Virus record (IMG/VR): IMGVR_UViG_3300045049_000056
Coordinates: 1 to 64,000 of that record
Source of the DNA: a virus
Lineage: Duplodnaviria > Heunggongvirae > Uroviricota > Caudoviricetes
Direction: 5' to 3' (one strand)
DNA length: 64,000 nt
Numbering within the stretch: position 1 is the stretch's first letter; each line of letters opens with the position of its first letter. Below are positions 2,467 to 55,856 of the stretch, piece by piece. A program made the translations under genes and the position numbers. The notes below the pieces were generated by a model. That model was not told the DNA's origin. It saw only the letters and a program-made list of their open reading frames with translations, and ran no database searches.

Positions 2467-2549
2467 GTTATTTCTCCTTGGTTGAATTCTTAAGAGTCTT
2501 CAGTTTATTCTTATGAATCTTAGCTGTCAAGCGTTTTCGTGAGCACAAA

Positions 2550-2578
2550 AAGAAAAAGCCCCAGCCGAAGCCGGGGCA
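2550..2578 (-). terminator. intrinsic terminator (8-bp GC stem, UUCG tetraloop, U-tract)
   Basis: Minus-strand RNA GCCCCGGC-UUCG-GCUGGGGC followed by UUUUUCU, just downstream of gene 2611..3282. Confidence 0.6.
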
Positions 2579-2610
2579 AACATGCATGGCACTGCATGAG
2601 GTGGAGGGTG

Positions 2611-3282
2611 TTACGTGATGGTTTGCAGCAGTTTAGCAAGCTTCAGGGCCAGTTGCATCGTAGCTTCGTCCACTTGCTCTTGCGTCACACCCGGACCCGG
2701 CACAACAGGTTGCATGAGGGTTGGCGATTCAGCAGCCGTCTTGCTCAGTTCGTCAAGGTAGCGCTTCATTGCGGCCTCGGAGCGCTTGTTCGTCTTCTTT
2801 TCATACTTGCGTTTGCCGGTAGTAGCTTCTTTCTCAGCAGCCGAACGTTTGATCGTAGCACCGTGAGGCTTGTCAGCAGAAGCTTTCTGTTCGTTCTGTG
2901 CAGGCTTCTTCGTTTCTTGGTCATGCAGGTCTTGCGCAAGCTGTTGAAGAGTTTCAGGCTTGTCCTGCTTGTCTTCATCTTTCTGAACAAGCACAAGATT
3001 GGCATCGTTCAGCTTGCGTGGAGTCTTGACAGACTTCGGGAAGCGCTGACGAACCAACACATCATGTTCAGGAATATTCGCATGCTTGGCATAAGCTTGT
3101 GCCAGCTTCATAGCCTGCGCGGGATCGAGATGTTCAGTGTGCATGTAAAAATCGTAGCCCACTTCGATGTCCTTGCCGTCCATGAAGGCTTTCAGACGAC
3201 CATTACCAGTTGCTTTGCTGTCCACGTCGAAGATAACAGGCGTGTTGGTCAGCGGGTAGATACGTGCGATAACCTGTTTCAT
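2611..3282 (-). CDS. hypothetical protein (223 aa) with Lys-rich central segment
   Basis: GGAG RBS before ATG at 3282. N-terminal ~100-aa domain, then a K/E/A-rich low-complexity centre. Confidence 0.6.
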   Translation of the reverse strand: MKQVIARIYPLTNTPVIFDVDSKATGNGRLKAFMDGKDIEVGYDFYMHTEHLDPAQAMKLAQAYAKHANIPEHDVLVRQRFPKSVKTPRKLNDANLVLVQKDEDKQDKPETLQQLAQDLHDQETKKPAQNEQKASADKPHGATIKRSAAEKEATTGKRKYEKKTNKRSEAAMKRYLDELSKTAAESPTLMQPVVPGPGVTQEQVDEATMQLALKLAKLLQTIT

Positions 3283-3472
3283 AGTGATGCTCCTATATAG
3301 TGTTTGATTTCGTTAGATATGTTTGACAACTTCGACAGTGCTGCATCTCTTGCTTGCCTTCGCTGTGTTGCTGTCGATGTGGTCACTTTATCGCGTTCTA
3401 AACCACACGTCAACAAAAATTTTCATGAATCAGACAATTCCTACTATCTTTCTGTTCTGAATCATGGTAGGC

Positions 3473-8231: not shown

Positions 8232-9257
8232 ATGATCGAAGTATTTGGCAAAGGGTCTGTTGCACGCCTCTTGAAGGACAGTGAATCTCCTTCTGGGCAT
8301 CGCCTGACTACAATGGAAATTGAAGTGAGCCGTATTGTATGGTGCGAATTCCTCACACATGGAATGCTTGCACGTAACGCTCATAGTTCCCGTGCCATCC
8401 CGTTTGATAAGATGGTTGAGCAGCTTAAGGGAAAGCCTGTGCGCTTTGGGCAGGCTAATAAGGGCATGCAGGATAAGGGTGAAGAGTTTGATGCACCTGT
8501 TAAGGGACACAAATATGAACCTCGTTTTTACACTGACGACGGACAAGAATGGCACACCCCTCAACAAGCATGGGAACTCGCAAAACGAGATGCTATTAAA
8601 TGGTCGCGACGGTTCTACGAAGCTGGCTACCACAAACAAGTGTACAATCGTCTGACAGAGCCGTTCCAGATGATTAAAGCTGTTGTGTCGGCTACAGAGT
8701 GGGACAACTACTATTGGCTTCGTGATGATGTTGCTGCTGATCCTACGTTGCACGATCTGGCGTCTACTATGCGCAAGGCCCACGAGCAGAGTGTTCCGCA
8801 ACTGTTGCAGCCGGGCGAGTGGCATTTGCCTTATATTGAAGATTCCCGTGACAGTAACGGAAATATCATATACTGGATTGATGGCGAAAATGGCGATCCG
8901 CATGTTCTTACGCTTGAAGAAGCTATCAAAGTATCCTCTGCACGTACTGGCGCAGTAAGCTTCCGCAACACTGATTACAATCTTGAGCGCTCTCTTGGTG
9001 TGTACGAGCGTCTTGTTGGTGATGATCGTAAGCATGCTAGTGCTATGCAACATCAGGCAACTCCGATGCAAGAGTCAAAAGGAAAAATGTTTATCGACGA
9101 TGTGGACCAATGGGTGAATCATCCGTACAGCCCTCTTACGTGGGAACCCGGTATCAGTCATGCAGATCGTGATGGCAACTTGTGGAGTGCTCAGTTCTGC
9201 GGCTGGATCATGCACCGTAAGCTTATTTCGGGTGAGAATTACAAAGCTGCAAAATAG
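8232..9257 (+). CDS. hypothetical protein (341 aa), no family recognised
   Basis: Long ORF with a GAGGAG-like RBS. Confidence 0.6.
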   Translation: MIEVFGKGSVARLLKDSESPSGHRLTTMEIEVSRIVWCEFLTHGMLARNAHSSRAIPFDKMVEQLKGKPVRFGQANKGMQDKGEEFDAPVKGHKYEPRFYTDDGQEWHTPQQAWELAKRDAIKWSRRFYEAGYHKQVYNRLTEPFQMIKAVVSATEWDNYYWLRDDVAADPTLHDLASTMRKAHEQSVPQLLQPGEWHLPYIEDSRDSNGNIIYWIDGENGDPHVLTLEEAIKVSSARTGAVSFRNTDYNLERSLGVYERLVGDDRKHASAMQHQATPMQESKGKMFIDDVDQWVNHPYSPLTWEPGISHADRDGNLWSAQFCGWIMHRKLISGENYKAAK

Positions 9258-9260
9258 TTG

Positions 9261-9290
9261 TTGACAAGCTTGCTCAACCTCTGCCATACT
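9261..9290 (+). promoter_or_regulatory. promoter, class B-like (TTGACAAGCTTGCT-N-CATACT)
   Basis: TTGACA 9261-9266, 18-nt spacer, CATACT 9285-9290, upstream of gene 9344. Confidence 0.4.
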
Positions 9291-9343
9291 ACGCCTGCGC
9301 TGAACAACAGCGCTTCTACAAACAACACAAGAAAGGTAATACA

Positions 9344-9676
9344 ATGAAGAAAATTATCTCCGCACTGGTCATGTCCCTGATGGCTTCGGCAGCATTTGCA
9401 CAAGCTGGCTATCCTGTCTCCGCTACGGCTGTTGCTACGGATGACGTGTCGGCTCCGTCTGTGCAAGCTGACGACGTTTCGTCCCCGTACATTGCTGCGA
9501 GTGTGGGAACGCCCAATTGCTGCGCGGTGTCTGTTTCGGCAAATGCTTTGGCAGGTCGTGTCTCGATTCCGCAAAAGGAAGACGACTCGGACAGCTTTGC
9601 AATGGCTGGCTTGGGCTTCGGCCTGTTTGGTTTGGTGGGCGTGAGCAAGCTGGCTCGTCGGAAGAAACAGAAGTAA
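9344..9676 (+). CDS. secreted protein with GlyGly-CTERM-like C-terminal anchor (110 aa)
   Basis: Signal peptide MKKIISALVMSLMASAAFA|QA. Internal DDVSxPS repeats. C-terminus AMAGLGFGLFGLVGVSKLARRKKQK is a Gly-rich hydrophobic helix with a basic tail. Confidence 0.6.
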   Translation: MKKIISALVMSLMASAAFAQAGYPVSATAVATDDVSAPSVQADDVSSPYIAASVGTPNCCAVSVSANALAGRVSIPQKEDDSDSFAMAGLGFGLFGLVGVSKLARRKKQK

Positions 9677-9684
9677 TTTGTAGA

Positions 9685-9708
9685 GGGGCGCCGAAAGGCG
9701 CTCTTTCG
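9685..9708 (+). terminator. putative terminator hairpin (GCGCC-GAAA-GGCGC) + UCUUUCG
   Basis: Directly after the stop of gene 9344..9676. Confidence 0.4.
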
Positions 9709-9727
9709 ATTAACTAAGGAGAGAGAA

Positions 9728-10069
9728 ATGAAACGTAGCATTGCACGGAAATGGGCTGCTGCACTAGCCAGTGGGGAGTACAAGCAAGGATTTGGTCAGC
9801 TTCGTAAAGGTGACAAATTTTGTGCACTTGGTACACTCTGTAATTTGCATGCACAAGAGCATCCTGAGGTTGCGGCAAAAGAGAAAGTAAAATCGCGCTA
9901 TCTTGGAGAAGAAACCATGTTGCCAACCCAAGTGGTGGAATGGGCAGGCATGAACTCTTCGGACGGTAAAATCAACTGGCGAGCGAGCATCATTGATCTG
10001 AATGACGAAGATAAAATGTCGTTTCCAGAGATTGCGAAAGTCATTAGAAACTGCTGGAAAGAACTGTAA
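9728..10069 (+). CDS. hypothetical protein (113 aa)
   Basis: AAGGAGAGAGAA then ATG. Confidence 0.55.
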   Translation: MKRSIARKWAAALASGEYKQGFGQLRKGDKFCALGTLCNLHAQEHPEVAAKEKVKSRYLGEETMLPTQVVEWAGMNSSDGKINWRASIIDLNDEDKMSFPEIAKVIRNCWKEL

Positions 10070-10083
10070 TTTAAGGAGAAATT

Positions 10084-10965
10084 ATGAACTATCAAATCAA
10101 CCCGAAATACATTAAATACGGCGCTGTAGGCGTTCTGGCGCTTATCCTCGCATCTTGTGCAAATCCATTCCACTCTGTACCTACCGGCTCCCGTGGTGTT
10201 GTCACTTCCTTTGGCAAGATTTCCGGTATTGAAGATGAGGGTCTTGTTGTTCTGCCTCCGTGGAAGAAACTCACCATTTTCAACATCCGTGCTGAGAAAG
10301 CTGACATTGAGAACGCGGAAGGTAGCACGAGCGATCAACAACCTGTCAAGGTGAGCATGACTGTGCGTTACAGCGTCGCTACCAACAAAGTTAGCGAAGT
10401 GTACGAGAAATATTCTCACGATGGCGATCTGTCAAGCTACGTTCAGACGGCCACACAAGAAGTGTTCAAGGCTGTTACGGCTCAATACTCTGCACCTGAT
10501 CTGATTATGCAGCGTGCCAAGGTTAGTGGTGATATTCGTAATCTGCTGGCCAAAAAGCTTGACATGTACGGTGCACAGGTTATCTCGATTGATATGCGTA
10601 GTTTCTCGTTCAGTCCCTCGTACATGGCAGCCATCAATGAGAAAGTTACGCAAGAGCAGCTTCGCCAAGGCGCTGAGAACAAGCTGAAAACTGTTGAGGC
10701 TGAGCAGAAGCAGAAAGTGGCAATTGCTGAGGCTGAAGCTAGTGCACAGAAGGTTCGTGCTGATGGACAGGCATATGCCACTACCAAGGCTGCACAGGCT
10801 GAAGCTGATAGCATCCGTGTGAAGGCACAAGCTCTTGCACAAAACAAGGATATGCTAGAACTGCGTCGTATCGAAGTAGAGCAAACTCGTGCAAGCCGTT
10901 GGGACGGTAAGCTTCCTACGTCGGTGTACGGTAGCGCACCTGTTCCGTTTATGAATGTAAAATGA
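10084..10965 (+). CDS. SPFH/Band-7 (prohibitin/HflK-like) domain lipoprotein (293 aa)
   Basis: Lipobox LILASC. Beta-rich SPFH-like core followed by a long Ala/Glu/Gln-rich coiled coil (QEQLRQGAENKLKTVEAEQKQKVAIAEAEA...), typical of HflK/C or YqiK. Confidence 0.55.
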   Translation: MNYQINPKYIKYGAVGVLALILASCANPFHSVPTGSRGVVTSFGKISGIEDEGLVVLPPWKKLTIFNIRAEKADIENAEGSTSDQQPVKVSMTVRYSVATNKVSEVYEKYSHDGDLSSYVQTATQEVFKAVTAQYSAPDLIMQRAKVSGDIRNLLAKKLDMYGAQVISIDMRSFSFSPSYMAAINEKVTQEQLRQGAENKLKTVEAEQKQKVAIAEAEASAQKVRADGQAYATTKAAQAEADSIRVKAQALAQNKDMLELRRIEVEQTRASRWDGKLPTSVYGSAPVPFMNVK

Positions 10966-11150
10966 TCCATTGGCCCGTTCTCCCTTTCAAGCCTACGCAC
11001 AAGGTTATTGTTGAGAACAATGAGCACGAATACAAAGCAGGGACGATTGTGCAGCATTTGTATTCAAGTGGCTTGACAGAATATGCTTGGTACACTGACG
11101 AAGAGGGTTGGATGCAGATTATGGATTCTACTGAATTGGAGGTGTTATGA
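10962..11150 (+). CDS. hypothetical protein (62 aa)
   Basis: ATGA-coupled to the SPFH gene. Confidence 0.5.
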   Translation: MIHWPVLPFKPTHKVIVENNEHEYKAGTIVQHLYSSGLTEYAWYTDEEGWMQIMDSTELEVL

Positions 11151-11374
11151 CTAATTTTCTTTTTGCGTTTATGGCGCTTACTGTAGTGTGGGGTATCATC
11201 GGTATGATTCGTGTTGATATTGTGTACAACCATCTAAAGCGACGAATCAAAGAGGTGTACTCTTCCAAAAACTGGCACAAGTATGAAATTGACATTCCCG
11301 GCACTTACAACTTGGCGCTGTGGGACTACCGCAAGTGGACGTACAAGCAATTCTTTCCAGAGGACGTGAAATGA
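11147..11374 (+). CDS. small membrane protein (75 aa)
   Basis: N-terminal TM helix FLFAFMALTVVWGIIGMI. Confidence 0.5.
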   Translation: MTNFLFAFMALTVVWGIIGMIRVDIVYNHLKRRIKEVYSSKNWHKYEIDIPGTYNLALWDYRKWTYKQFFPEDVK

Positions 11375-11550
11375 TATTTTTCTTACTGTTTTGGTTGGTT
11401 TCGGCAGGCTTGACATTGCTTATAATTGCTAAGATTGAGAAATGTATTACTTTGTTTGACGTAGGGATGTCGCTTCTGTGTGGTCCAATTGCAACTATTC
11501 CTGCGTTCTTTCAGTTTGGCCACGAGATCAACCTTTGGACAAAGAAATGA
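11371..11550 (+). CDS. small membrane protein (59 aa)
   Basis: ATG at 11371 (MIFFLLFWLVSAGLTLLII...). The track ORF 11320.. is an upstream extension. Confidence 0.45.
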   Translation: MIFFLLFWLVSAGLTLLIIAKIEKCITLFDVGMSLLCGPIATIPAFFQFGHEINLWTKK

Positions 11551-11720
11551 AAACAATCTTGTTAGCAATCTTAGGAGCGCTGCTCGGCTTTCTTGCTGGA
11601 GCGTTCTACAGTGTCAGCTTTGATATTTCAACATGGACTGAAAGCACTAGGTTCATGACGTTGCTGTTTATGTTCGGTGCCGGGTGTTTTGGCGTTGTTG
11701 TAGGGGAGTCAGTAGCATGA
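11547..11720 (+). CDS. small membrane protein (57 aa)
   Basis: ATGA overlap. Two hydrophobic helices. Confidence 0.45.
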   Translation: MKTILLAILGALLGFLAGAFYSVSFDISTWTESTRFMTLLFMFGAGCFGVVVGESVA

Positions 11721-14585: not shown

Positions 14586-14614
14586 TTGACAAGATTGTTA
14601 TTCTGATGTATAAT
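14586..14614 (+). promoter_or_regulatory. consensus promoter, class B (TTGACAAGATTGTTA-N-TATAAT)
   Basis: TTGACA 14586-14591, 17-nt spacer, TATAAT 14609-14614. Perfect sigma70 consensus. Confidence 0.65.
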
Positions 14615-38640: not shown

Positions 38641-39777
38641 TTATTGATATGCCGTAGGCGGAGTGCCAGTGACGCTGCTTGGATTAAGTTGAGACACATC
38701 CACAGCAAGAACAAAATTGTTAGTCACCACCCCTGTTTGTGTATTGAATGTGCTGCCACCTGTTCTAGGGTCTTCTTGTATCTCATACAGTTTTGTGTAC
38801 AAAGTGGAACCTTTTCTTTGCACAAGGCCACGCATATCAGAGAAATATCCTATGTTCCCATTAACGTCCGGGGATGAGTAAGCAACCCAATTATCTTGTT
38901 CAAAGAACGGGATTGCTACTCCGGGTGTTCCTGAGAAATTCATTGAATAGCTTGCAGGAGTACCTGTATTAGAATATACAATGTTTTGGATTGCTGAAAT
39001 AGTTACGTTCTCTGCTGATGAATCATAGACAAGAGTTCCATCACTCGTGTAGTATTGTTCTCCATAGCTACCGCCGCCATTTATCGGGCCATCTAAAGCA
39101 AATACATGTAGTGTTGGAACTACATAAGGCACTCCCCGAGGTCTTACGATGGTGAGCGTGACTGTAATATCATAACCGCCCTGCGCGTTTACCCTCCCAG
39201 CTTCCACAAAAGATGTGCAAGAATACCATATATCTGCATTTGTTGAGTCTGGCAAGTTTACGACAATAAACCTATTAGATTGCGGTCTGGCGTTTAGGGT
39301 TGCCGTATGGTCATGTCGAACTATGACGTTATCTCCGTTACAGTACGAGTTTAATACTGGAGTTGCAGATGGCTGCAATGTCGTTACGTATTGAGGTACA
39401 GGATAATTGAAATCTGCTAGTTGATCGCCATCATCGTTATATAAAATAGTTCCGTACGTGTAGGTCTGATTCAATCTCTTAGCAAATACCACAAATTCTG
39501 TAGGTGCCGTCGAATTTAGATAAGGGCTCCCGCTGCTAACTTTAGTCCACACTAATTTTGCATGCCCAAGCCCGTCATCTGTAATTGCAATACTGAATTG
39601 CCCTCCGGACGAGACAGGAAGAATGTATATCGCACCTGCCGGAATCTGATTATAAACTTTACTTCCGGAAGGGGACGAATACTGTATGGTTAGTAGCTCT
39701 ATGAAGATTCCTGCCTTATTTGCTCCAGTCATTGCAACAGAGCCATTTGGGCGATAAGTTTCAATTCCAAGAGTCAT
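38641..39777 (-). CDS. tail fibre protein (378 aa)
   Basis: Ser/Thr/Gly/Asn-rich, beta-helix-like composition. Confidence 0.6.
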   Translation of the reverse strand: MTLGIETYRPNGSVAMTGANKAGIFIELLTIQYSSPSGSKVYNQIPAGAIYILPVSSGGQFSIAITDDGLGHAKLVWTKVSSGSPYLNSTAPTEFVVFAKRLNQTYTYGTILYNDDGDQLADFNYPVPQYVTTLQPSATPVLNSYCNGDNVIVRHDHTATLNARPQSNRFIVVNLPDSTNADIWYSCTSFVEAGRVNAQGGYDITVTLTIVRPRGVPYVVPTLHVFALDGPINGGGSYGEQYYTSDGTLVYDSSAENVTISAIQNIVYSNTGTPASYSMNFSGTPGVAIPFFEQDNWVAYSSPDVNGNIGYFSDMRGLVQRKGSTLYTKLYEIQEDPRTGGSTFNTQTGVVTNNFVLAVDVSQLNPSSVTGTPPTAYQ

Positions 39778-42623
39778 AAAGAAAGATTCCCAATCTTAAT
39801 ACGGATAGCACCTGTCGTATCATAAACTTTGATGGCACCATCGCTAATAACAACACGACCACCACCAGCACCTTTAGCACTGTCGAATGTGCCAATGTTA
39901 TTAGCGATGTCGTTAGCATTAGTCGCTGCACCAGTTACGTTACCGCCCGGACCAAGAGTTGCACCATTGGTTGCATTCAAATCACCTGTGTAAACACTCC
40001 TGTCTAGATCGCGAATCCACGCACCCCAAGACGTATCGGCGCAACCTCCGCTACGTTTCCATACTTCCGACGAGCTTACATACGCCCACTGTGTAGCGTA
40101 TCCACCAGAGTTATCGGTCCAAGGTTTAATAGTTTCTAGTGTACAATAGGTTGCAGACGTTGTAAGCCCAATAGAAGAACATTGCTTGAACTCTTTAACA
40201 TGCGCAACCGAGTATCCTGCTGGCGACGTATTAGTGGTCCGCGCGCCATCAACGACAGGCAAATATTGTACCCGCCCACCCCCTGCTCCATTCAATGTCC
40301 CATCTGAGCCTAAAGTCACTCCTGTGGCCATCGTCGCAGCCTTGGCAGCAAGAGCATTAATCAGCTTTTGTTTTTCATCGTAATACGTTGTCCAATTGCT
40401 ACGCCATGTCGAGCCAACAATGACAGTATCCTGCGTTGTGTCATTCCATGCAGGTGAGAGCGAAAGAAGATATGTTGAAAGATTTTGATGAGCGGTGTTG
40501 TATGCTGTGCGGCTAACACCAAGACCATCGGCCTGTGCAATCAATGTCGTCCATTCAGCATCTACTGTATTCCAGTTAAGAATTACCTGGGCTTTTTCGC
40601 CCCTAGACAGGATATTGTCGCTTGAAATATTCGACAACTGTGTAATTGCCGCATCTGCCGTTACCTTGGCTTCACGCGAACTTTGGAACCACTCAGAATA
40701 AACATCACCTTCTTGGATGATCAGTTCATCAATATGGAATTCGTCATTTACTGCGACCGTCCCATTATTGCAGTCGATATAAAGCCTTCCCTGACCTTCC
40801 ACGGTGCCACCCCAAGTCAGCCGCACCGTGTAGATTTGCCATGCTGTCGAAAGCGCGGGGCGAGCTACCCACACTGTTGAAGATGGTGCAGAGTTCCACT
40901 GAAGAGTAGGCAGGCTGAAACCGGACCCGTTCACCTTCTTCGCCTTGAAGGAAACTACGTACGTCTTATTCGGTTGCCAACCGCCTTGAACACCTCCGGT
41001 TTCTAGTTCGGTTCCGGTATAAAGCCCCCATGTGGTAGCACCCGTGGCGTCGGCCCGAATCCCAAACGCCTTTCCACCTGTGCGGCCCGTTACGTTCAAA
41101 AAGCTTGTTGAAATCGCGGCATTGTTATAGGCTGTGTAGCCGATTGGTCGATAATCCGTTGGAAGATTCTGAGTCTCAAAGCTGCTATTGTTAAGCAGAT
41201 TGTCACCTCCGATCACGACTTTCAACTTGTCCGCGTTAATGTTCGGGGCGTAGGAGTCAGCAAGTTGCTGTCCAACAGCGAGAATCACATTACCATTCCC
41301 ATCTTGCATACTGGCAGACTGCATAATGACATTGCCATTTACGTCAACAGAAAACTTACCATTCGCAGAACTAATCGTGCCACTTACATTCAGGTTGCCT
41401 GTATTTGTCGTAATAGCGCTAAGCGTGCCCACTTTAAGCGAAGACCAATAAGGAATCGACCAAGTAATCTTGTTTGTCGTAGGATCGTAGATACCATCTG
41501 ACTGATACATGTACTGACCAGATGTCAGCGTAGGAACTGTAGAAGACCACGTACCAACAATACCGCCATCGTTCGTTGCAGGAAGACTCGTCTTACCTGT
41601 TGTCTGTGCGGGAGCAGTTGTTGTTGTAGGAGTAGAGGAGGCACAATATGCCGCTACATAAGACGCACCAGCAGCCGCAGCCGCACCATTCGATCCAGAA
41701 TAGCCAACAGCGATGACGGCAGCAGTGGTCCAGTTAAAGCTTGTTTGCGTATTCGTTGCAGTGTCGGTAAGATATACCCTAGCAGCCCAAAGCGTCATGC
41801 CCTGAGAGGCGGACGTACCCGGTGTGGCAGACCAGCCAGAAGGAATCGTGCCAATTGCACCGCCATTCCATGTGTACGTAGATGTGCCGACAGGACCAGC
41901 AGGAATGCTTGCAGCCCATTGGTAGACGTTAATCGTTGCAGACTGCATACCAGCCGTACCAGCATTACCTTGAGGCCCCTGCGCACCATTTGTTGTCCAC
42001 GCTTGCACAGTAGACGACGTGTAGGTTACACTTGTGGTTGTAGCGCCGCCAGCAGCACTAATAGGCATAGCTGCTACATATAAGCTGAGTCCCGGTGTGC
42101 CCGGATTAGACGGAACTGTCACACTCCAATTATCGGAATCACTGTACGTACTATTTGTACTATTTGCCCAAGTGTAGACAGTCGAGCCAGTCGGCTTGGC
42201 AGGTGTAGTGACATTCCACTGATACAGATAAGCTATAGCGTGCTGATCCCCGGCAGGGCCTACTGTACCGGACGTGCCGTCAGAAACTTTAGTCACAGAG
42301 GTGCTTGCTGTGTAAGTTTGCCCGTTGCTTGTCACTGTGGCTGTAACGATTGCAGACGTTCCCGACATAGCATTGTAGGCAATAGTGGCCGTGTTGTCGT
42401 GGTTGTCCGTGATCGTTGCACCGTTCGCTGTAAAAGAAGCTGTGCCCGTGATACCCAGCAAGTGCGCTGTGAAAGTAATGTACGAAGGGGTTGTGACATT
42501 CGATGCGCTCACATGGAATGCTGGGTTATCTGATGTAATCAAGATTGTTGCGCTTTGAGGATTTGTACTCCTCGTTGCTGTCCCCAACAGAAGCACATCC
42601 CTATCGTTCATTACTGTTGCCAT
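39774..42623 (-). CDS. central tail fibre/host-specificity protein (949 aa)
   Basis: Large, Thr/Ser/Gly/Ala-rich, repetitive. Its position after the TMP and distal tail protein corresponds to lambda J. Confidence 0.65.
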   Translation of the reverse strand: MATVMNDRDVLLLGTATRSTNPQSATILITSDNPAFHVSASNVTTPSYITFTAHLLGITGTASFTANGATITDNHDNTATIAYNAMSGTSAIVTATVTSNGQTYTASTSVTKVSDGTSGTVGPAGDQHAIAYLYQWNVTTPAKPTGSTVYTWANSTNSTYSDSDNWSVTVPSNPGTPGLSLYVAAMPISAAGGATTTSVTYTSSTVQAWTTNGAQGPQGNAGTAGMQSATINVYQWAASIPAGPVGTSTYTWNGGAIGTIPSGWSATPGTSASQGMTLWAARVYLTDTATNTQTSFNWTTAAVIAVGYSGSNGAAAAAGASYVAAYCASSTPTTTTAPAQTTGKTSLPATNDGGIVGTWSSTVPTLTSGQYMYQSDGIYDPTTNKITWSIPYWSSLKVGTLSAITTNTGNLNVSGTISSANGKFSVDVNGNVIMQSASMQDGNGNVILAVGQQLADSYAPNINADKLKVVIGGDNLLNNSSFETQNLPTDYRPIGYTAYNNAAISTSFLNVTGRTGGKAFGIRADATGATTWGLYTGTELETGGVQGGWQPNKTYVVSFKAKKVNGSGFSLPTLQWNSAPSSTVWVARPALSTAWQIYTVRLTWGGTVEGQGRLYIDCNNGTVAVNDEFHIDELIIQEGDVYSEWFQSSREAKVTADAAITQLSNISSDNILSRGEKAQVILNWNTVDAEWTTLIAQADGLGVSRTAYNTAHQNLSTYLLSLSPAWNDTTQDTVIVGSTWRSNWTTYYDEKQKLINALAAKAATMATGVTLGSDGTLNGAGGGRVQYLPVVDGARTTNTSPAGYSVAHVKEFKQCSSIGLTTSATYCTLETIKPWTDNSGGYATQWAYVSSSEVWKRSGGCADTSWGAWIRDLDRSVYTGDLNATNGATLGPGGNVTGAATNANDIANNIGTFDSAKGAGGGRVVISDGAIKVYDTTGAIRIKIGNLSL

Positions 42624-53240: not shown

Positions 53241-55856
53241 TTATACCCAAGTACCCGTACCGCTCGGCGCGATGAACTGACCACCACTCTGCGACTGGAT
53301 TTGGAAGTACAACGTACCTGTCGGGACACCCGTGAATTGGAGAATCTGTGTCCAAGTTTGTGCGTTATCACTCGACACGTACGCCTGAATCGTCGAACCT
53401 GTTCGGCGGAACTCCATCCAGTCGTTTTCTGCCGGAACTCGATTGGACACCAAGGTGCTGCCGCTACCGTAGTACATACCGTAACCTGCTGTACCTGCCA
53501 TCATGTTGCCCGAGTTGTAGCCGTAACCGTCGATAGTCTTCGTAGTTTTGAAGCCAATCATCGGCTTGGTATTTCCACTATTGAGCTGGGCAATCTTGAC
53601 GCGGATCGTACCATCACCAGACAGTCCAAGACCAGTGACACCACCCAGCGGACTATTGTCGTAACCAACACCTGCTGCGGTCTGATAGGAGTACGGTGCG
53701 ACGCTGGAGGTTTCCGTCATGCGCTGGAGAGTTGCGCCATTAAAGCGGATATCCTGTGTGCCGCTTGACGATGCGTTGACAACGTAAGTATTCGACGTTG
53801 CAGTGACACCAGTATTCACGCGGTCACGAACACTCAAGGTACGACCTGCACTGCTTGTAGAAGGCGTCAGACTAAAGGACCATGTACCATTCGCATTGAT
53901 GGTTGCTGCGATCTGCGTCCACACACCTGCTGTGTCATCACTCAAGCGATAATCGAGGTTTGCAGGCTGTACCGTAGTCCATGTACCGGACACGGTGAAC
54001 GGCGTACCAACTGTCTGCGTTGCAATCGTGTTGATCGATAGAGTTTCAGACGAAGCCGCAGATGCCGTGAAAGTAATACTTGTCGGATTAGTCAGGCTAC
54101 CATTGTTGGTTGTGCTGATCGTGATCGTGCCAGCAGCAGCGGCCGTATAAGTGAACGTGGCTGTCGGGCTGGCCGTTGTGAGCGAAACACTAGTCGGAGA
54201 GAACGTACCACCTGCACCGCCATCCGAAGGAGTTACAACGACTGTGCCTGTAATATTGGAGCCTACAGGCGATACACCGACAGTGAAGTTACTAGAAGCC
54301 ACACCCGCTGTACCTGTTGTCGGGCCAGTCAACGTAGTAGCTGTTGCTGTAGACGGAACGTTATTGCCGATGGATTGTGTCGTACTAACCATCTGATTGC
54401 CTGCCAAGTCACGCAAGCCGTTTGTTCCCGGTGCTGTGTACGTAAGCGTGCGAGCAGCTTCACCATAAACAAACGCAGGTGTAACAGAAACGTAGATGTA
54501 ATTACCTTGGACACGTACTCCAGTAGCAGTATGGCCCGTAAGCGTAAATGCCGAAGCAGCAGGAACATAGTTCGGATCAACAGGCTCAGATACCGACCAA
54601 GCAATTGTAGAGGCATCCGATGCGTACACAATTGCAGCACGAGTTACAGGGGCAGTTGTGTCAACGCCCTGCGACAACATTGCTTGAGGAATCACCGATG
54701 CCATATTGGAGCCTAGCAAACGTGCACCAGCGGCATTGTAATGGAGGTTGTCACCCATCATATAGCCGGACAACCCCGGAGTATAAGCACAACGGGGGAA
54801 TTCTGCTGCAACAGTACGATGAGCATTGTCAACAGATTGATAACCCGGATGTCCAGAGGTATCAGCTACGTTTTCAGCTACAAGACCTCCAATAACAAAC
54901 CAAGCATTGGACGCAGTAGGCACACGGGTACGAATGGCTTGGATAAGAGTCTTCATCGCGCCGGTGTAATTCAGTTGCAGGTTTGAGCCATAGTAATCTG
55001 CGTCACCTTCGCCCTGATGCCATGCGATTCCAACAACACGCGATGCCGGATAAATCTTCTGTGCGGCTGTAACAGCGAGAGTGGCTTGATTGATAGCATT
55101 GTCGAGCAGAACGCTACCTGTTGCGCCAAGAGCTACGCCGCTGCCTGCGGTGCCGTCTCCGGGGAACCATTCTCGTGTGTCTGCAAACAGTTTAGTTGCA
55201 CTACGTGCGGCAGGAACCAGAAGAACTTTACGATTGCTTGGGCACATACCCGCATACGTGCGGCCGAGCCAAGAGCCGGGACCAAGACCCGCACCATTGC
55301 CCATTGTTGGCAAAGACACTTGTGCGAAATAATGACGTAGAGGATCAACAGCTTGCGTAATCTTCTGATACGTAGTCGCATCATTCGGGTAGCTACCGAA
55401 CATGTAGACTCGGGAATCTGCGAGGTCGAGCAACGGAGTGTTAACGTCCATGCCAACCATGTTCGATTGACCAAGCAAAAGAATAATGTCAAAGCCGGGA
55501 TCGTACGGATTAATCAACCCCATATTCAACAGTGCAGCAGGGGCACTATTAAACACTGTCGGCGTACCTGCAATGAAATTGACGGCATTACCGTTATTGG
55601 AGCTATTAATAATCTTCGTGCACGTAATAACTGTTGTGCTCGTAATCGTGAAGAAAGCACTTTGCCAATTACCAGCACCGTCATCTACGATGAACGGAAC
55701 ATTGATATCGCCAACAGCAATTTCATTAGCACTAATGGCTTGTGCGAGAGTTCGGCAGCCTGTCAAAGCTGCGCCCATAGTAATTGTAGCGTTCACAGAC
55801 AGAGTTGTAGAACTCATGCTGGACGCTGTAACCTTTAAGCGATCTGCAAATTTCAT
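53241..55856 (-). CDS. large structural protein with SASA/SGNH (sialate O-acetylesterase-like) esterase domain, Ig-like repeats and C-terminal lectin-like region (871 aa)
   Basis: FDIILLLGQSNMVGM is the GQSN hallmark of SASA/DUF303 esterases. Thr/Ser/Gly-rich tandem beta-repeats follow. AGGTGA RBS. Confidence 0.65.
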   Translation of the reverse strand: MKFADRLKVTASSMSSTTLSVNATITMGAALTGCRTLAQAISANEIAVGDINVPFIVDDGAGNWQSAFFTITSTTVITCTKIINSSNNGNAVNFIAGTPTVFNSAPAALLNMGLINPYDPGFDIILLLGQSNMVGMDVNTPLLDLADSRVYMFGSYPNDATTYQKITQAVDPLRHYFAQVSLPTMGNGAGLGPGSWLGRTYAGMCPSNRKVLLVPAARSATKLFADTREWFPGDGTAGSGVALGATGSVLLDNAINQATLAVTAAQKIYPASRVVGIAWHQGEGDADYYGSNLQLNYTGAMKTLIQAIRTRVPTASNAWFVIGGLVAENVADTSGHPGYQSVDNAHRTVAAEFPRCAYTPGLSGYMMGDNLHYNAAGARLLGSNMASVIPQAMLSQGVDTTAPVTRAAIVYASDASTIAWSVSEPVDPNYVPAASAFTLTGHTATGVRVQGNYIYVSVTPAFVYGEAARTLTYTAPGTNGLRDLAGNQMVSTTQSIGNNVPSTATATTLTGPTTGTAGVASSNFTVGVSPVGSNITGTVVVTPSDGGAGGTFSPTSVSLTTASPTATFTYTAAAAGTITISTTNNGSLTNPTSITFTASAASSETLSINTIATQTVGTPFTVSGTWTTVQPANLDYRLSDDTAGVWTQIAATINANGTWSFSLTPSTSSAGRTLSVRDRVNTGVTATSNTYVVNASSSGTQDIRFNGATLQRMTETSSVAPYSYQTAAGVGYDNSPLGGVTGLGLSGDGTIRVKIAQLNSGNTKPMIGFKTTKTIDGYGYNSGNMMAGTAGYGMYYGSGSTLVSNRVPAENDWMEFRRTGSTIQAYVSSDNAQTWTQILQFTGVPTGTLYFQIQSQSGGQFIAPSGTGTWV

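What the first reader, a model, noticed from the sequence alone, without database searches (positions are those of the whole stretch)
9261..9708. Self-contained cassette (own promoter and terminator) for a secreted repeat protein with a GlyGly-CTERM-like sorting tail
The protein has a Sec signal peptide and DDVSxPS repeats. Its C-terminus AMAGLGFGLFGLVGVSKLARRKKQK is a Gly-rich segment, a hydrophobic helix and a basic tail, the architecture of GlyGly-CTERM (rhombosortase) or PEP-CTERM-type sorting signals. A phage carrying a substrate for a host sorting system would be unusual. It may be a moron for superinfection exclusion or cell-surface modification, and it would hint at a Vibrio/Shewanella/Aeromonas-type host.
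Basis: inference. Interest (0 to 1): 0.55.

Follow-up and report, generated by a model that had tools for sequence, protein, structure and literature searches.

The report
Phage membrane protein with sorting-like tail
An uncultivated phage carries a small self-contained gene for an exported, membrane-anchored repeat protein whose glycine-rich tail is almost unchanged across related phages; the tail looks like a bacterial sorting signal but matches none of the known ones.

Summary
ORF 9344-9676 (+) encodes a 110-aa protein with a Sec-type signal peptide, an acidic, disordered VSAP/DDVSxP repeat region, and the tail AMAGLGFGLFGLVGVSKLARRKKQK. It lies between a sigma-70-type promoter (9261-9290) and a hairpin terminator (9683-9706). 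Promoter, a 5'-UTR hairpin, Shine-Dalgarno site and terminator are all conserved, the hairpins with compensatory changes, in 16-19 distinct relatives.

The family is phage-only. About 35-40 proteins were found, all on metagenomic contigs of up to 92 kb from a clade distantly related to FelixO1/PAK_P1-type myoviruses. None was found in 185,579 species genomes or 50,697 cultured phages.

No member matches GlyGly-CTERM. PEP-CTERM scores 7 bits and there is no PEP or GG motif. The tail occurs on no other protein family, once per phage, and no sorting enzyme is in the window. The host is unknown.

The closest curated relative is the orphan WGxxGxxG family. 31 of 33 members hit it below cutoff, and hhalign gives 88% over 18 columns without the DWGW signature.

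The tail is the most conserved part (87-91% identity against 51% for the ectodomain), with synonymous variation, so it is specifically recognised.

Best reading: an early-expressed bitopic inner-membrane protein with a sequence-specific glycine-zipper helix. Its role is unknown, possibly exclusion or envelope modification.

The parts
9261..9290 (+). Sigma-70-type promoter: -35 TTGACA (9261-9266), 18-nt spacer, extended -10 TG (9282-9283), -10 CATACT (9285-9290).
   Evidence: 10 of 12 consensus matches, TG present. TTGAC and -10 positions 2 and 6 are invariant in 16 distinct relatives, with a 17-18 nt spacer.
9297..9313 (+). 5'-terminal stem-loop of the predicted transcript: GCGCUG-AACAA-CAGCGC. 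It starts 5-7 nt after the -10, at about +1. Inferred role: mRNA stabiliser.
   Evidence: Fold of -10 to -11.9 kcal/mol. A hairpin sits at the same place in all 16 relatives, with different stem sequences: GCACUG/CAGUGC, UGUGCU/AGCACA, CGCUCA/GGGCG. No Rfam match.
9330..9336 (+). Shine-Dalgarno site AGAAAGG, 7 nt before the ATG.
   Evidence: Sequence. AAAGG is conserved in all relatives.
9344..9676 (+). CDS, 110 aa including the stop codon. The product is a precursor of a small bitopic membrane protein.
   Evidence: 33 homologues at 49-67% identity. The exhaustive HMM search finds only this family.
9344..9400 (+). Signal peptide, residues 1-19 (MKKIISALVMSLMASAAFA|Q). The alternative cleavage site is after AQA21.
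   Evidence: n/h/c regions read from the sequence. A17, F18, A19 and Q20 are (nearly) invariant. AF2 helix at 2-16.
9401..9595 (+). Periplasmic segment, residues 20-84. It is acidic (net about -6), rich in Ser/Ala/Val/Pro, has two DDVS[AS]P repeats, a CC pair (C59, C60) and DDSDS next to the membrane. Predicted disordered.
   Evidence: pLDDT < 50 and no secondary structure for residues 22-80. Length varies 55-89 aa and mean pairwise identity is 51% across the family. The CC pair is absent in distant members.
9596..9673 (+). C-terminal tail, residues 85-110: FAMAGLGFGLFGLVGVS (Gly-rich hydrophobic helix, FGxxGxxG) followed by KLARRKKQK (basic cluster).
   Evidence: AF2 helix at 84-107. 87% (TM) and 91% (basic cluster) mean pairwise identity. 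Invariant A88-L94 with 2-4 synonymous codons per position. FG and VS covary at positions 95/96.
9683..9712 (+). Intrinsic-terminator-like hairpin: 10-bp stem 9683-9692 / 9697-9706 with a GAAA tetraloop, then a weak U-tract.
   Evidence: -17 kcal/mol, z = -3.6. Conserved in 19 relatives, with 3 of 6 consensus pairs showing double changes and loops of GAAA, UUCG or UUUC.

Best explanation
The cassette is an insulated, host-RNA-polymerase-driven (hence probably early and strongly expressed) transcription unit. It belongs to a clade of uncultivated myoviruses of about 88-92 kb, distantly related to FelixO1/PAK_P1-type phages.

Inferred pathway: the product is exported by Sec, the signal peptide is removed after AFA, and the protein stays in the inner membrane as a type-I (N-out, C-in) bitopic protein. 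A 55-89-residue acidic, disordered, repeat-variable chain (VSAP/DVSxP motifs) lies in the periplasm. It is held by a short glycine-zipper helix (MAGLGFGLFGLVG) and a KxxxRRKK stop-transfer tail.

The helix is nearly invariant under protein-level selection, so it is not a passive anchor. It is inferred to pack against a specific partner in the membrane, either itself or a host membrane protein.

The most likely biological role (inference, not tested) is remodelling or guarding the envelope of the infected cell, for example superinfection exclusion or interference with a host membrane complex.

It is not a GlyGly-CTERM or PEP-CTERM protein.
For: - Gene and cassette are real and conserved.
- Phage context: portal, major capsid, family-A DNA polymerase, primase-helicase and RNR. 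Nearest cultured phages are 44-47% identical.
- Syntenic position after a thymidylate-synthase gene and before the primase-helicase in relatives.
- Topology: signal peptide plus a single C-terminal helix, with 6 of the last 9 residues basic. AF2 gives helices at 2-16 and 84-107 and a disordered middle.
- Tail identity is 87-91% against 51% for the ectodomain. Synonymous codons occur at invariant residues.
- Family restricted to phage contigs. Only 8 representatives among 1.84 billion proteins. None in 185,579 genomes or in cultured phages.
- It is the only ORF in the window with this architecture.
- No multi-pass protease-like ORF in the window.
- No match to any curated sorting-signal model above cutoff.
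Against: - No experiment, and no SignalP or TMHMM tool. Retention of the tail versus its removal cannot be told from sequence.
- The hydrophobic stretch is short (about 17 residues) and has five Gly. By the Hessa scale recalled from memory it is only marginally hydrophobic. That is more typical of cleaved sorting signals than of permanent anchors.
- The tail has the full tripartite layout of sorting signals and weakly resembles WGxxGxxG, PVV-CTERM, MYXO-CTERM and LPXTG models in their TM and basic parts.
- The proposed role has no homology support. PADLOC, PHROGs, Pfam and PDB all returned nothing.
Confidence: 0.5

Rival explanations
1. The tail is a genuine C-terminal sorting signal of a not-yet-characterised class, a (G-L-x)n type related to the orphan WGxxGxxG-CTERM domain. 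A host intramembrane enzyme cleaves it near S-[LF]-A-M-A|G and releases or re-anchors the acidic repeat domain on the cell surface. Alternatively the phage protein jams that enzyme.
For: - Tripartite layout at the extreme C-terminus: a conserved boundary motif [AS]MAG, a short Gly-rich helix and an RRKK cluster.
- The tail is the best-conserved part.
- 31 of 33 members hit NF041742 WGxxGxxG_fam, best E = 9.9e-6.
- Bona fide WGxxGxxG proteins have the same overall build: signal peptide ending ASAQ, a low-complexity region, an acidic patch, then the (GLx)n helix and basic residues.
- hhalign gives 88% probability, E = 2.9e-6.
- Haft 2023 (bioRxiv 10.1101/2023.06.07.544157) regards WGxxGxxG-CTERM as a possible orphan sorting signal.
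Against: - All NF041742 scores are below the 35-bit cutoff (17.3 bits for this protein). The domain model NF038039 is not hit.
- The hhalign match is 18 columns of Gly/Leu-rich helix plus basic residues and omits the defining DWGW motif. Such low-complexity similarity can be convergent.
- The tail is on a single protein family, one copy per phage, and on no bacterial protein detectable at E <= 1e-3 in 1.84 billion representatives.
- No sorting enzyme is known even for WGxxGxxG-CTERM.
- Named WGxxGxxG proteins found here come from cyanobacteria, Deinococcus, Paenibacillus and one Paracoccus. Most of these are not the kind of host suggested for this phage.
Confidence: 0.2
2. One reading: the protein is a substrate of a host rhombosortase (GlyGly-CTERM) or exosortase (PEP-CTERM), which would imply a Vibrio/Shewanella/Aeromonas-type host.
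For: - Generic architecture only.
- The Pfam PEP-CTERM model aligns weakly to the hydrophobic part: 7.2 bits, E = 7.7, model positions 7-21.
- The nearest primase-helicase is from Aeromonas phages, at 46.6% identity.
Against: - No TIGR03501 or TIGR02595 hit in any of 33 members at E <= 10.
- No GG doublet and no P-E-P motif in any member.
- The major capsid protein is nearest to Pseudomonas, Limnohabitans and Curvibacter phages.
- Tail-protein searches gave no host signal.
Confidence: 0.04
3. The tail is a passive single-pass anchor with no sequence-specific recognition. All the function resides in the periplasmic repeat chain, for example as an O-glycosylated mucin-like layer: its S-A-P motifs resemble the Ser-Ala-Pro core of the PglL acceptor WPAAASAP.
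For: - The positive-inside rule is satisfied and there is one helix.
- The VS[AS]P motif recurs 2-7 times in every member, including distant ones.
- The PglL minimal motif WPAAASAP, with a favourable Pro at +2, is described in PMC4850263.
Against: - A passive anchor should tolerate hydrophobic substitutions. Instead A88-G-L-G-F-G-L94 is invariant despite synonymous change, while the ectodomain is the least conserved and most length-variable part.
- The glycosylation idea rests on a three-residue resemblance only.
Confidence: 0.12
4. A chance ORF, or a non-coding regulatory region between the thymidylate-synthase-like gene and the next gene.
For: None beyond its small size and low-complexity composition.
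Against: - 33 or more homologues share conserved ends and start/stop positions.
- The synonymous versus non-synonymous pattern indicates coding selection.
- A Shine-Dalgarno site is conserved.
Confidence: 0.01

Closest known systems
WGxxGxxG family proteins (NCBIfam NF041742), carrying the WGxxGxxG-CTERM domain (NF038039), an orphan putative sorting signal (Haft 2023, bioRxiv 10.1101/2023.06.07.544157)
   Same: - Small (70-115 aa) proteins with a signal peptide ending A-x-A-Q, a low-complexity linker and an acidic patch.
- The C-terminal helix has Gly every third residue and is followed by basic residues.
- 31 of 33 members give weak NF041742 hits. hhalign gives 88% over the helix and basic part.
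   Different: - No Trp and no DWGW signature. The tail starts AMAGLGF, with 2-residue Gly spacing before the FGxxGxxG stretch.
- G96 is Ser in about a third of members.
- All scores are below the curated cutoff.
- This family is encoded only by phages of (presumably) Proteobacteria. The named WGxxGxxG proteins retrieved here are chromosomal genes, mostly of cyanobacteria, Deinococcus and Paenibacillus.
GlyGly-CTERM / rhombosortase and PEP-CTERM / exosortase sorting signals
   Same: A C-terminal hydrophobic helix followed by an Arg/Lys cluster, on a Sec-exported protein.
   Different: - Signature motifs (GG-S, P-E-P) are absent and the HMMs are not matched.
- It is not one of many paralogous substrates.
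- No cognate enzyme could be examined.
Phage-encoded small membrane proteins in autonomous cassettes ('morons', superinfection-exclusion proteins such as T4 Imm/Sp or HK97 gp15) - comparison from general knowledge
   Same: - A small membrane protein with its own promoter and terminator.
- Higher G+C than its surroundings: 55% against 47%, with GC3 of 58%.
- It lies in a variable early region among many small ORFs.
   Different: - No sequence similarity to any of them. There is no PHROG, Pfam or PADLOC hit.
- The topology differs: a cleaved signal peptide with a C-terminal anchor.
- Its relatives appear to be virulent phages, so it is not a prophage-expressed moron in the strict sense.
Inovirus major coat protein pVIII (Pfam PF19199)
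   Same: A signal peptide, an acidic periplasmic N-terminus, a helix rich in small residues, and a basic C-terminus. There is a weak Pfam hit (E = 0.66).
   Different: - The hit covers only the signal-peptide region and is far below the cutoff.
- The ectodomain is much longer and disordered.
- The gene sits in a tailed-phage early region, which has no need for a DNA-coating coat protein.

Membership tests
GlyGly-CTERM (TIGR03501; rhombosortase substrates) | Match to the TIGR03501 HMM at or above cutoff. | tested here: not met
   No hit at E <= 10 for the window protein or any of 33 family members.
GlyGly-CTERM (TIGR03501; rhombosortase substrates) | Gly-Gly signature immediately before the hydrophobic helix. 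| tested here: not met
   The boundary motif is S-[LF]-A-M-A-G-L-G-F. There is no adjacent GG in any close member.
GlyGly-CTERM (TIGR03501; rhombosortase substrates) | A rhombosortase in the same genome or host, and several substrates per genome. | tested here: inconclusive
   The host is unknown. There is no multi-pass protease-like ORF in the 64-kb window. Only one ORF in the window has such a tail. About 24 kb of the phage genome was not seen.
PEP-CTERM (TIGR02595 / PF07589; exosortase substrates) | Pro-Glu-Pro motif and an HMM score at or above cutoff. | tested here: not met
   PF07589 scores 7.2 bits against a 20.7 cutoff and aligns only model positions 7-21, the helix. No TIGR02595 hit. 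No P-E-P motif in the sequence.
WGxxGxxG family (NF041742) / WGxxGxxG-CTERM (NF038039) | HMM score at or above the curated cutoff (35 bits for NF041742). | tested here: not met
   17.3 bits, E = 0.0054 for this protein. 31 of 33 members hit it, best E = 9.9e-6, all below cutoff. NF038039 is not hit.
WGxxGxxG family (NF041742) / WGxxGxxG-CTERM (NF038039) | D-W-G-W-L-G-x-x-G signature with (near-)invariant Trp residues. | tested here: not met
   Bona fide members have invariant F-D-W-G-W-L-G-L-L-G. Here the sequence is AMAGLGFGLFGLVG, with no Trp. hhalign aligns only the 18 columns downstream of the signature.
WGxxGxxG family (NF041742) / WGxxGxxG-CTERM (NF038039) | Small protein built as signal peptide, low-complexity linker, then C-terminal Gly-periodic helix and basic residues. 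| tested here: met
Prokaryotic tripartite C-terminal sorting signal (generic, as defined by Haft) | A signature motif, a TM helix and a basic cluster at the extreme C-terminus. | tested here: met
   [AS]MAG, then LGFGL[FV][GS]L[VM]G[VLI], then K-x-x-R-R-K-K, followed by 0-10 further residues.
Prokaryotic tripartite C-terminal sorting signal (generic, as defined by Haft) | The same tail is found on several otherwise unrelated proteins. | tested here: not met
   - The exhaustive profile search of 1.84 billion representatives finds only this small-protein family, plus one spurious repeat adhesin.
- The genome scans gave only chance-level pattern matches, none confirmed.
- There is one copy per phage.
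- Caveat: tails of less than about 37 bits similarity would be missed.
Prokaryotic tripartite C-terminal sorting signal (generic, as defined by Haft) | Co-occurrence with, and cleavage by, a dedicated sorting enzyme. | not testable with these tools
   Host unidentified and no experiment possible.
Moron (autonomous transcription unit in a phage genome) | Own promoter and terminator, and deviant base composition. | tested here: met
   Promoter and terminator are conserved with covariation. G+C is 55% against 47% for the window, and GC3 is 58% against 42-54% for neighbouring genes.
Moron (autonomous transcription unit in a phage genome) | Present or absent between otherwise related phages, and expressed from a prophage. 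| tested here: inconclusive
   Absent from all 50,697 cultured phages, including the nearest relatives, but present in every examined member of its own clade at the same position. No lysogeny function was seen. No relative lies in bacterial genomes, which suggests a virulent lifestyle.

The most novel reading that the evidence does not exclude
A clade of virulent phages encodes a mimic, either a substrate or a competitive blocker, of an uncharacterised host intramembrane sorting pathway. That pathway would recognise (G-L-x)n C-terminal signals of the orphan WGxxGxxG-CTERM type. The phage protein would then be the first genetic handle on that pathway, and the first case of a phage hijacking a C-terminal sorting system to display or shed an acidic, possibly O-glycosylated, repeat chain on the infected cell.
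Probability: 0.15. Interest if true: 0.75.

Novelty: new variant of a known kind. Interest (0 to 1): 0.38.

Why it matters
If the tail is only a specific membrane-interaction helix, this is one more unannotated family of small phage membrane proteins. It would still be a well-defined, strongly expressed early cassette and a good candidate for exclusion or host-takeover assays.

If the tail is processed, it would show that phages can feed proteins into bacterial C-terminal sorting machinery. It would also give a tractable substrate for the orphan WGxxGxxG-like class, for which no enzyme is known.

The conserved promoter, 5' hairpin, Shine-Dalgarno site and terminator layout is also a compact natural expression cassette.

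Tried and rejected
Searches that found nothing:
- Nucleotide and tblastn searches of cultured phages for the cassette and the protein: no match.
- Exact look-up of the window protein's contig: not on record.
- PHROGs, PADLOC, PDB sequences and Rfam: nothing.
- Literature search for the sample accessions: nothing.
- Literature search for phage-borne rhombosortase or exosortase substrates: no precedent found.

Searches that were uninformative for technical reasons:
- Tail-only word-index protein search. The third returned only one 52-aa fragment and did not even re-find the family, so it says nothing about modularity.
- Tail-only scan of metagenome contigs. 452 pattern matches but only one was confirmed, and that was another family member, L034. 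The tblastn confirmation evidently fails on this Gly/Leu-rich tail, so this test is also weak.
- The genome-collection scans have a related limit. They exclude family relatives, but tail sharing on unrelated proteins would probably not have been confirmed. The numbers of raw pattern matches are about what chance gives (my estimate is about 70 for the 9-residue pattern).

Host inference:
- The major capsid protein, primase-helicase and two tail proteins gave only hits below 47% identity, to phages of unrelated hosts.
- No tRNA genes in the window.

Rejected leads:
- P0037, a 3586-aa adhesin hit: rejected as a low-complexity artefact, matching through GLTGLGFDLG...DDVQVAGASA repeats.
- The CC pair as a MYXO-CTERM-like invariant Cys: rejected. 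It lies about 25 residues before the helix and is missing in distant members.
- pVIII-like coat protein: rejected (and genomic context).
- ORF 2539-3300, with three hydrophobic segments, as a possible CPBP or rhomboid enzyme: no Pfam hit.
Full report
**1. What is in the sequence**

The window is a tailed-phage genome fragment. It has a Mu-type portal, an E-type major capsid protein, a family-A DNA polymerase, a primase-helicase, a class I RNR and a 1860-aa tape-measure-sized ORF. Its nearest cultured relatives are only 44-47% identical in the capsid and primase-helicase proteins. They include Pseudomonas phages of the PAK_P1/KPP10 type and phages of Limnohabitans, Curvibacter and Aeromonas. 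There is no nucleotide-level match in 50,697 phage records.

It has four parts:
- MKKIISALVMSLMASAAFA|QA is a typical SPase-I signal peptide. This was read by rule, as no predictor was available.
- Residues 20-84 are acidic and rich in Ser/Ala/Val/Pro. They hold two DDVS[AS]P copies, a CC pair, and DDSDS next to the membrane.
- Residues 85-101 (FAMAGLGFGLFGLVGVS) are a short Gly-rich hydrophobic stretch.
- KLARRKKQK ends the protein.

AlphaFold2 with the family alignment gives helices only at 2-16 and 84-107. Confidence is below 50 for residues 22-80, which fits a disordered ectodomain.

**2. The cassette**

The elements are:
- A -35 TTGACA (9261-9266), an 18-nt spacer with TG, and a -10 CATACT (9285-9290) precede the gene.
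- A GCGCUG-AACAA-CAGCGC hairpin (9297-9313) starts at about the predicted +1.
- AGAAAGG lies 7 nt before the ATG.
- A 10-bp GAAA-loop hairpin (9683-9706; -17 kcal/mol, z = -3.6) follows the stop codon.

The promoter scan alone is not above chance in this region, so I relied on comparison with relatives:
- In 16 distinct upstream regions, TTGAC and positions 2 and 6 of the -10 are invariant and the spacer is 17-18 nt.
- A hairpin always begins 5-7 nt after the -10, although its stem sequence differs.
- In 19 distinct downstream regions the terminator hairpin is kept with compensatory changes and with GAAA, UUCG or UUUC loops.

The unit is therefore a conserved, insulated transcription unit. The 5'-terminal hairpin plus the 3' hairpin suggest a stable monocistronic mRNA. 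This is an inference from the established role of 5' stem-loops in protecting E. coli mRNAs.

The gene's G+C is 55%, against 47% for the window.

**3. The family**

- The word-indexed search found 33 homologues at 49-67% identity. All are unnamed and lie on metagenomic or viral contigs, many of 40-92 kb.
- IMG/VR gave 24 loci.
- An exhaustive HMMER profile search of 1.84 billion representative proteins found only 8 representatives at E <= 1e-3.
  - These include four more distant small proteins of the same build (P0035, P0036, P0038, P0039). The two looked up (P0036, P0038) lie in phage-like contexts.
  - One hit is a spurious repeat adhesin.
- Two scans of 185,579 species genomes found no relative.
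- The gene always sits after a thymidylate-synthase gene and before the small-ORF/primase-helicase region. It is often followed by a DUF8296 gene.

Across the family:
- The ectodomain varies in length (55-89 aa) and sequence (51% mean identity), with 2-7 VS[AS]P motifs and 0-2 CC pairs.
- The helix is 87% identical and the basic cluster 91% identical.
- A88-G-L-G-F-G-L94, K102, R105 and R106 are invariant in the codon comparison of 19 distinct tail sequences. They are encoded by up to four different codons per position, so selection acts on the protein.
- Positions 95/96 are either FG or VS, never mixed.

**4. Is the tail a known sorting signal?**

NCBIfam results:
- There is no hit to GlyGly-CTERM (TIGR03501) or PEP-CTERM (TIGR02595) for any of the 33 members, even at E <= 10.
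- The only recurrent hit is NF041742 'WGxxGxxG family protein', in 31 of 33 members. The best E is 9.9e-6, and the window protein scores 17.3 bits against a cutoff of 35.
- Scattered sub-threshold hits to LPXTG_anchor, PVV-CTERM, MYXO-CTERM and LAVTG align only to the helix and basic parts of those models.

Pfam PEP-CTERM scores 7.2 bits against 20.7, again on the helix only. No member has a GG doublet before the helix or a P-E-P motif.

Haft's 2023 preprint describes WGxxGxxG-CTERM as a broadly distributed possible orphan sorting signal with no known enzyme.

I retrieved bona fide WGxxGxxG proteins and aligned 17 of them. Their build is strikingly parallel:
- a signal peptide ending ASAQ;
- a low-complexity linker;
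- an acidic patch;
- DWGWLGLLGLLGLAGL followed by basic residues.

Profile-profile comparison gives 88% probability (E = 2.9e-6). However, it covers only 18 columns (GLFGLVGVSKLARRKKQK against GLLGLIGLAGLRSKDRER), and the defining DWGW motif is not aligned.

The phage tail therefore works like, or at least looks like, that class. It fails the membership criteria, and similarity in Gly/Leu-rich helices may be convergent.

**5. Other hallmarks of a sorting system**

- The tail is on a single family.
- It is the only ORF in the window with a signal peptide and a C-terminal helix plus basic cluster.
- No real gene in the window has four or more hydrophobic segments. The candidates tested have no rhomboid, CPBP or exosortase domain.
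- The host could not be identified, so the presence of a host enzyme is untestable here.
- The tail-only searches were technically insensitive and are not counted as evidence.

**6. Interpretation**

What is shown: a conserved, autonomously transcribed gene for an exported protein. Its C-terminal Gly-zipper helix and basic cluster are under strong protein-level constraint, while its periplasmic chain evolves by repeat gain, repeat loss and substitution.

What is inferred: after signal-peptide removal the protein is a type-I inner-membrane protein. Its helix engages a specific partner, either through self-association via GxxxG/GxxG faces or by binding a host membrane protein. It therefore probably acts on the envelope of the infected cell, for example in exclusion or interference with a membrane complex. 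I give this about 0.5.

The main rival (about 0.2) is that the tail really is a cleaved sorting signal of an uncharacterised WGxxGxxG-like class. Three points keep this open:
- the hydrophobic stretch is short and marginal;
- the boundary motif is conserved;
- the protein has the same build as WGxxGxxG proteins.

The specific GlyGly-CTERM/PEP-CTERM reading is essentially excluded (about 0.04).

A passive anchor carrying a functional ectodomain (about 0.12) is disfavoured by the conservation pattern. That ectodomain might be O-glycosylated, since its S-A-P motifs resemble the PglL acceptor core WPAAASAP (PMC4850263).

**7. Novelty and verdict**

The family is unannotated: it has no Pfam, PHROG, NCBIfam, PADLOC or PDB match. 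It is phage-restricted and carries a sorting-signal-like tail that belongs to no curated class. I found no report of a phage-encoded substrate of a C-terminal sorting system.

It is best filed as a new variant of known kinds, namely small phage membrane proteins in autonomous cassettes and tripartite CTERM-like tails. Interest is moderate. The anatomy is clean and testable, but the function is unknown and the exciting reading is unproven.

Noticed in passing
window 8232-9257 (+): The upstream 341-aa gene matches PHROG 85 (thymidylate synthase, E = 1.4e-73) but no Pfam family. At the same position the relative L002 has a canonical 215-aa ThyX (PF02511). This looks like a non-orthologous or highly divergent replacement.
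   Followed up: partly
window 10084-10965 (+): A phage-encoded SPFH/Band-7 protein (Pfam E = 2e-30; PHROG 200 'lipoprotein'). Its N-terminus has a lipobox-like LILASC. It is absent at this position in relatives L002 and L003, so it is a second envelope-directed accessory gene next to the cassette.
   Followed up: partly
window 9728-10069 (+); L002 4419-4760; L031 3881-4222; L034 2662-3003: A 113-aa DUF8296 / phrog_18067 gene (MKRSIARKWA...) follows the cassette, directly or one gene further on, in several relatives. It may be a functional partner or may simply be syntenic.
   Followed up: no
window 11147-11720 (+): Three overlapping small ORFs (75, 76 and 80 aa), each with one or two hydrophobic segments and no family match. 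This is a cluster of small membrane proteins downstream of the cassette.
   Followed up: partly
window 14586-14614 (+): A perfect sigma-70 consensus promoter (TTGACA-17-TATAAT) just after the primase-helicase gene. The phage seems to use several host-type promoters.
   Followed up: no
Relatives L003, L009, L011, L018, L027 (between the stop codon and the terminator); 3' ends of the CDS in many relatives: Some relatives carry an extra small hairpin (for example UAAUGCUCUUACGAGCAUG) between the stop codon and the terminator. Many extend the protein beyond RRKKQK by 4-10 variable residues (GTETL, ADKKPGL, AVKEPGL, SKSTESI, SAKSEGIGGA). The 3' end of the gene is an indel hotspot, while TAATTTGTAG after the stop codon is conserved.
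   Followed up: partly
Family alignment A1, residues 95/96 of the window protein: Strict two-state covariation in the helix, F-G (12 distinct sequences) or V-S (7), never mixed. This suggests a packing constraint on one helix face.
   Followed up: partly
window 53241-55856 (-): An 870-aa protein among the structural genes has a SASA (sialate O-acetylesterase-type) domain. Its only cultured-phage relatives are Arthrobacter and Glutamicibacter phage minor tail proteins, at about 30% identity. It may be a receptor-modifying tail enzyme.
   Followed up: partly
window 39774-42623 (-): Residues about 626-789 of a 949-aa tail-region protein resemble Enterococcus phage tail fibre / 'glycerophosphoryl diester phosphodiesterase' segments at 36-38% identity. 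This is a mosaic tail-fibre module shared across very distant hosts.
   Followed up: no
L001 487-1473: In one relative the gene directly downstream of the cassette is a 328-aa DUF2076 protein instead of DUF8296. The region downstream of the cassette is plastic.
   Followed up: no
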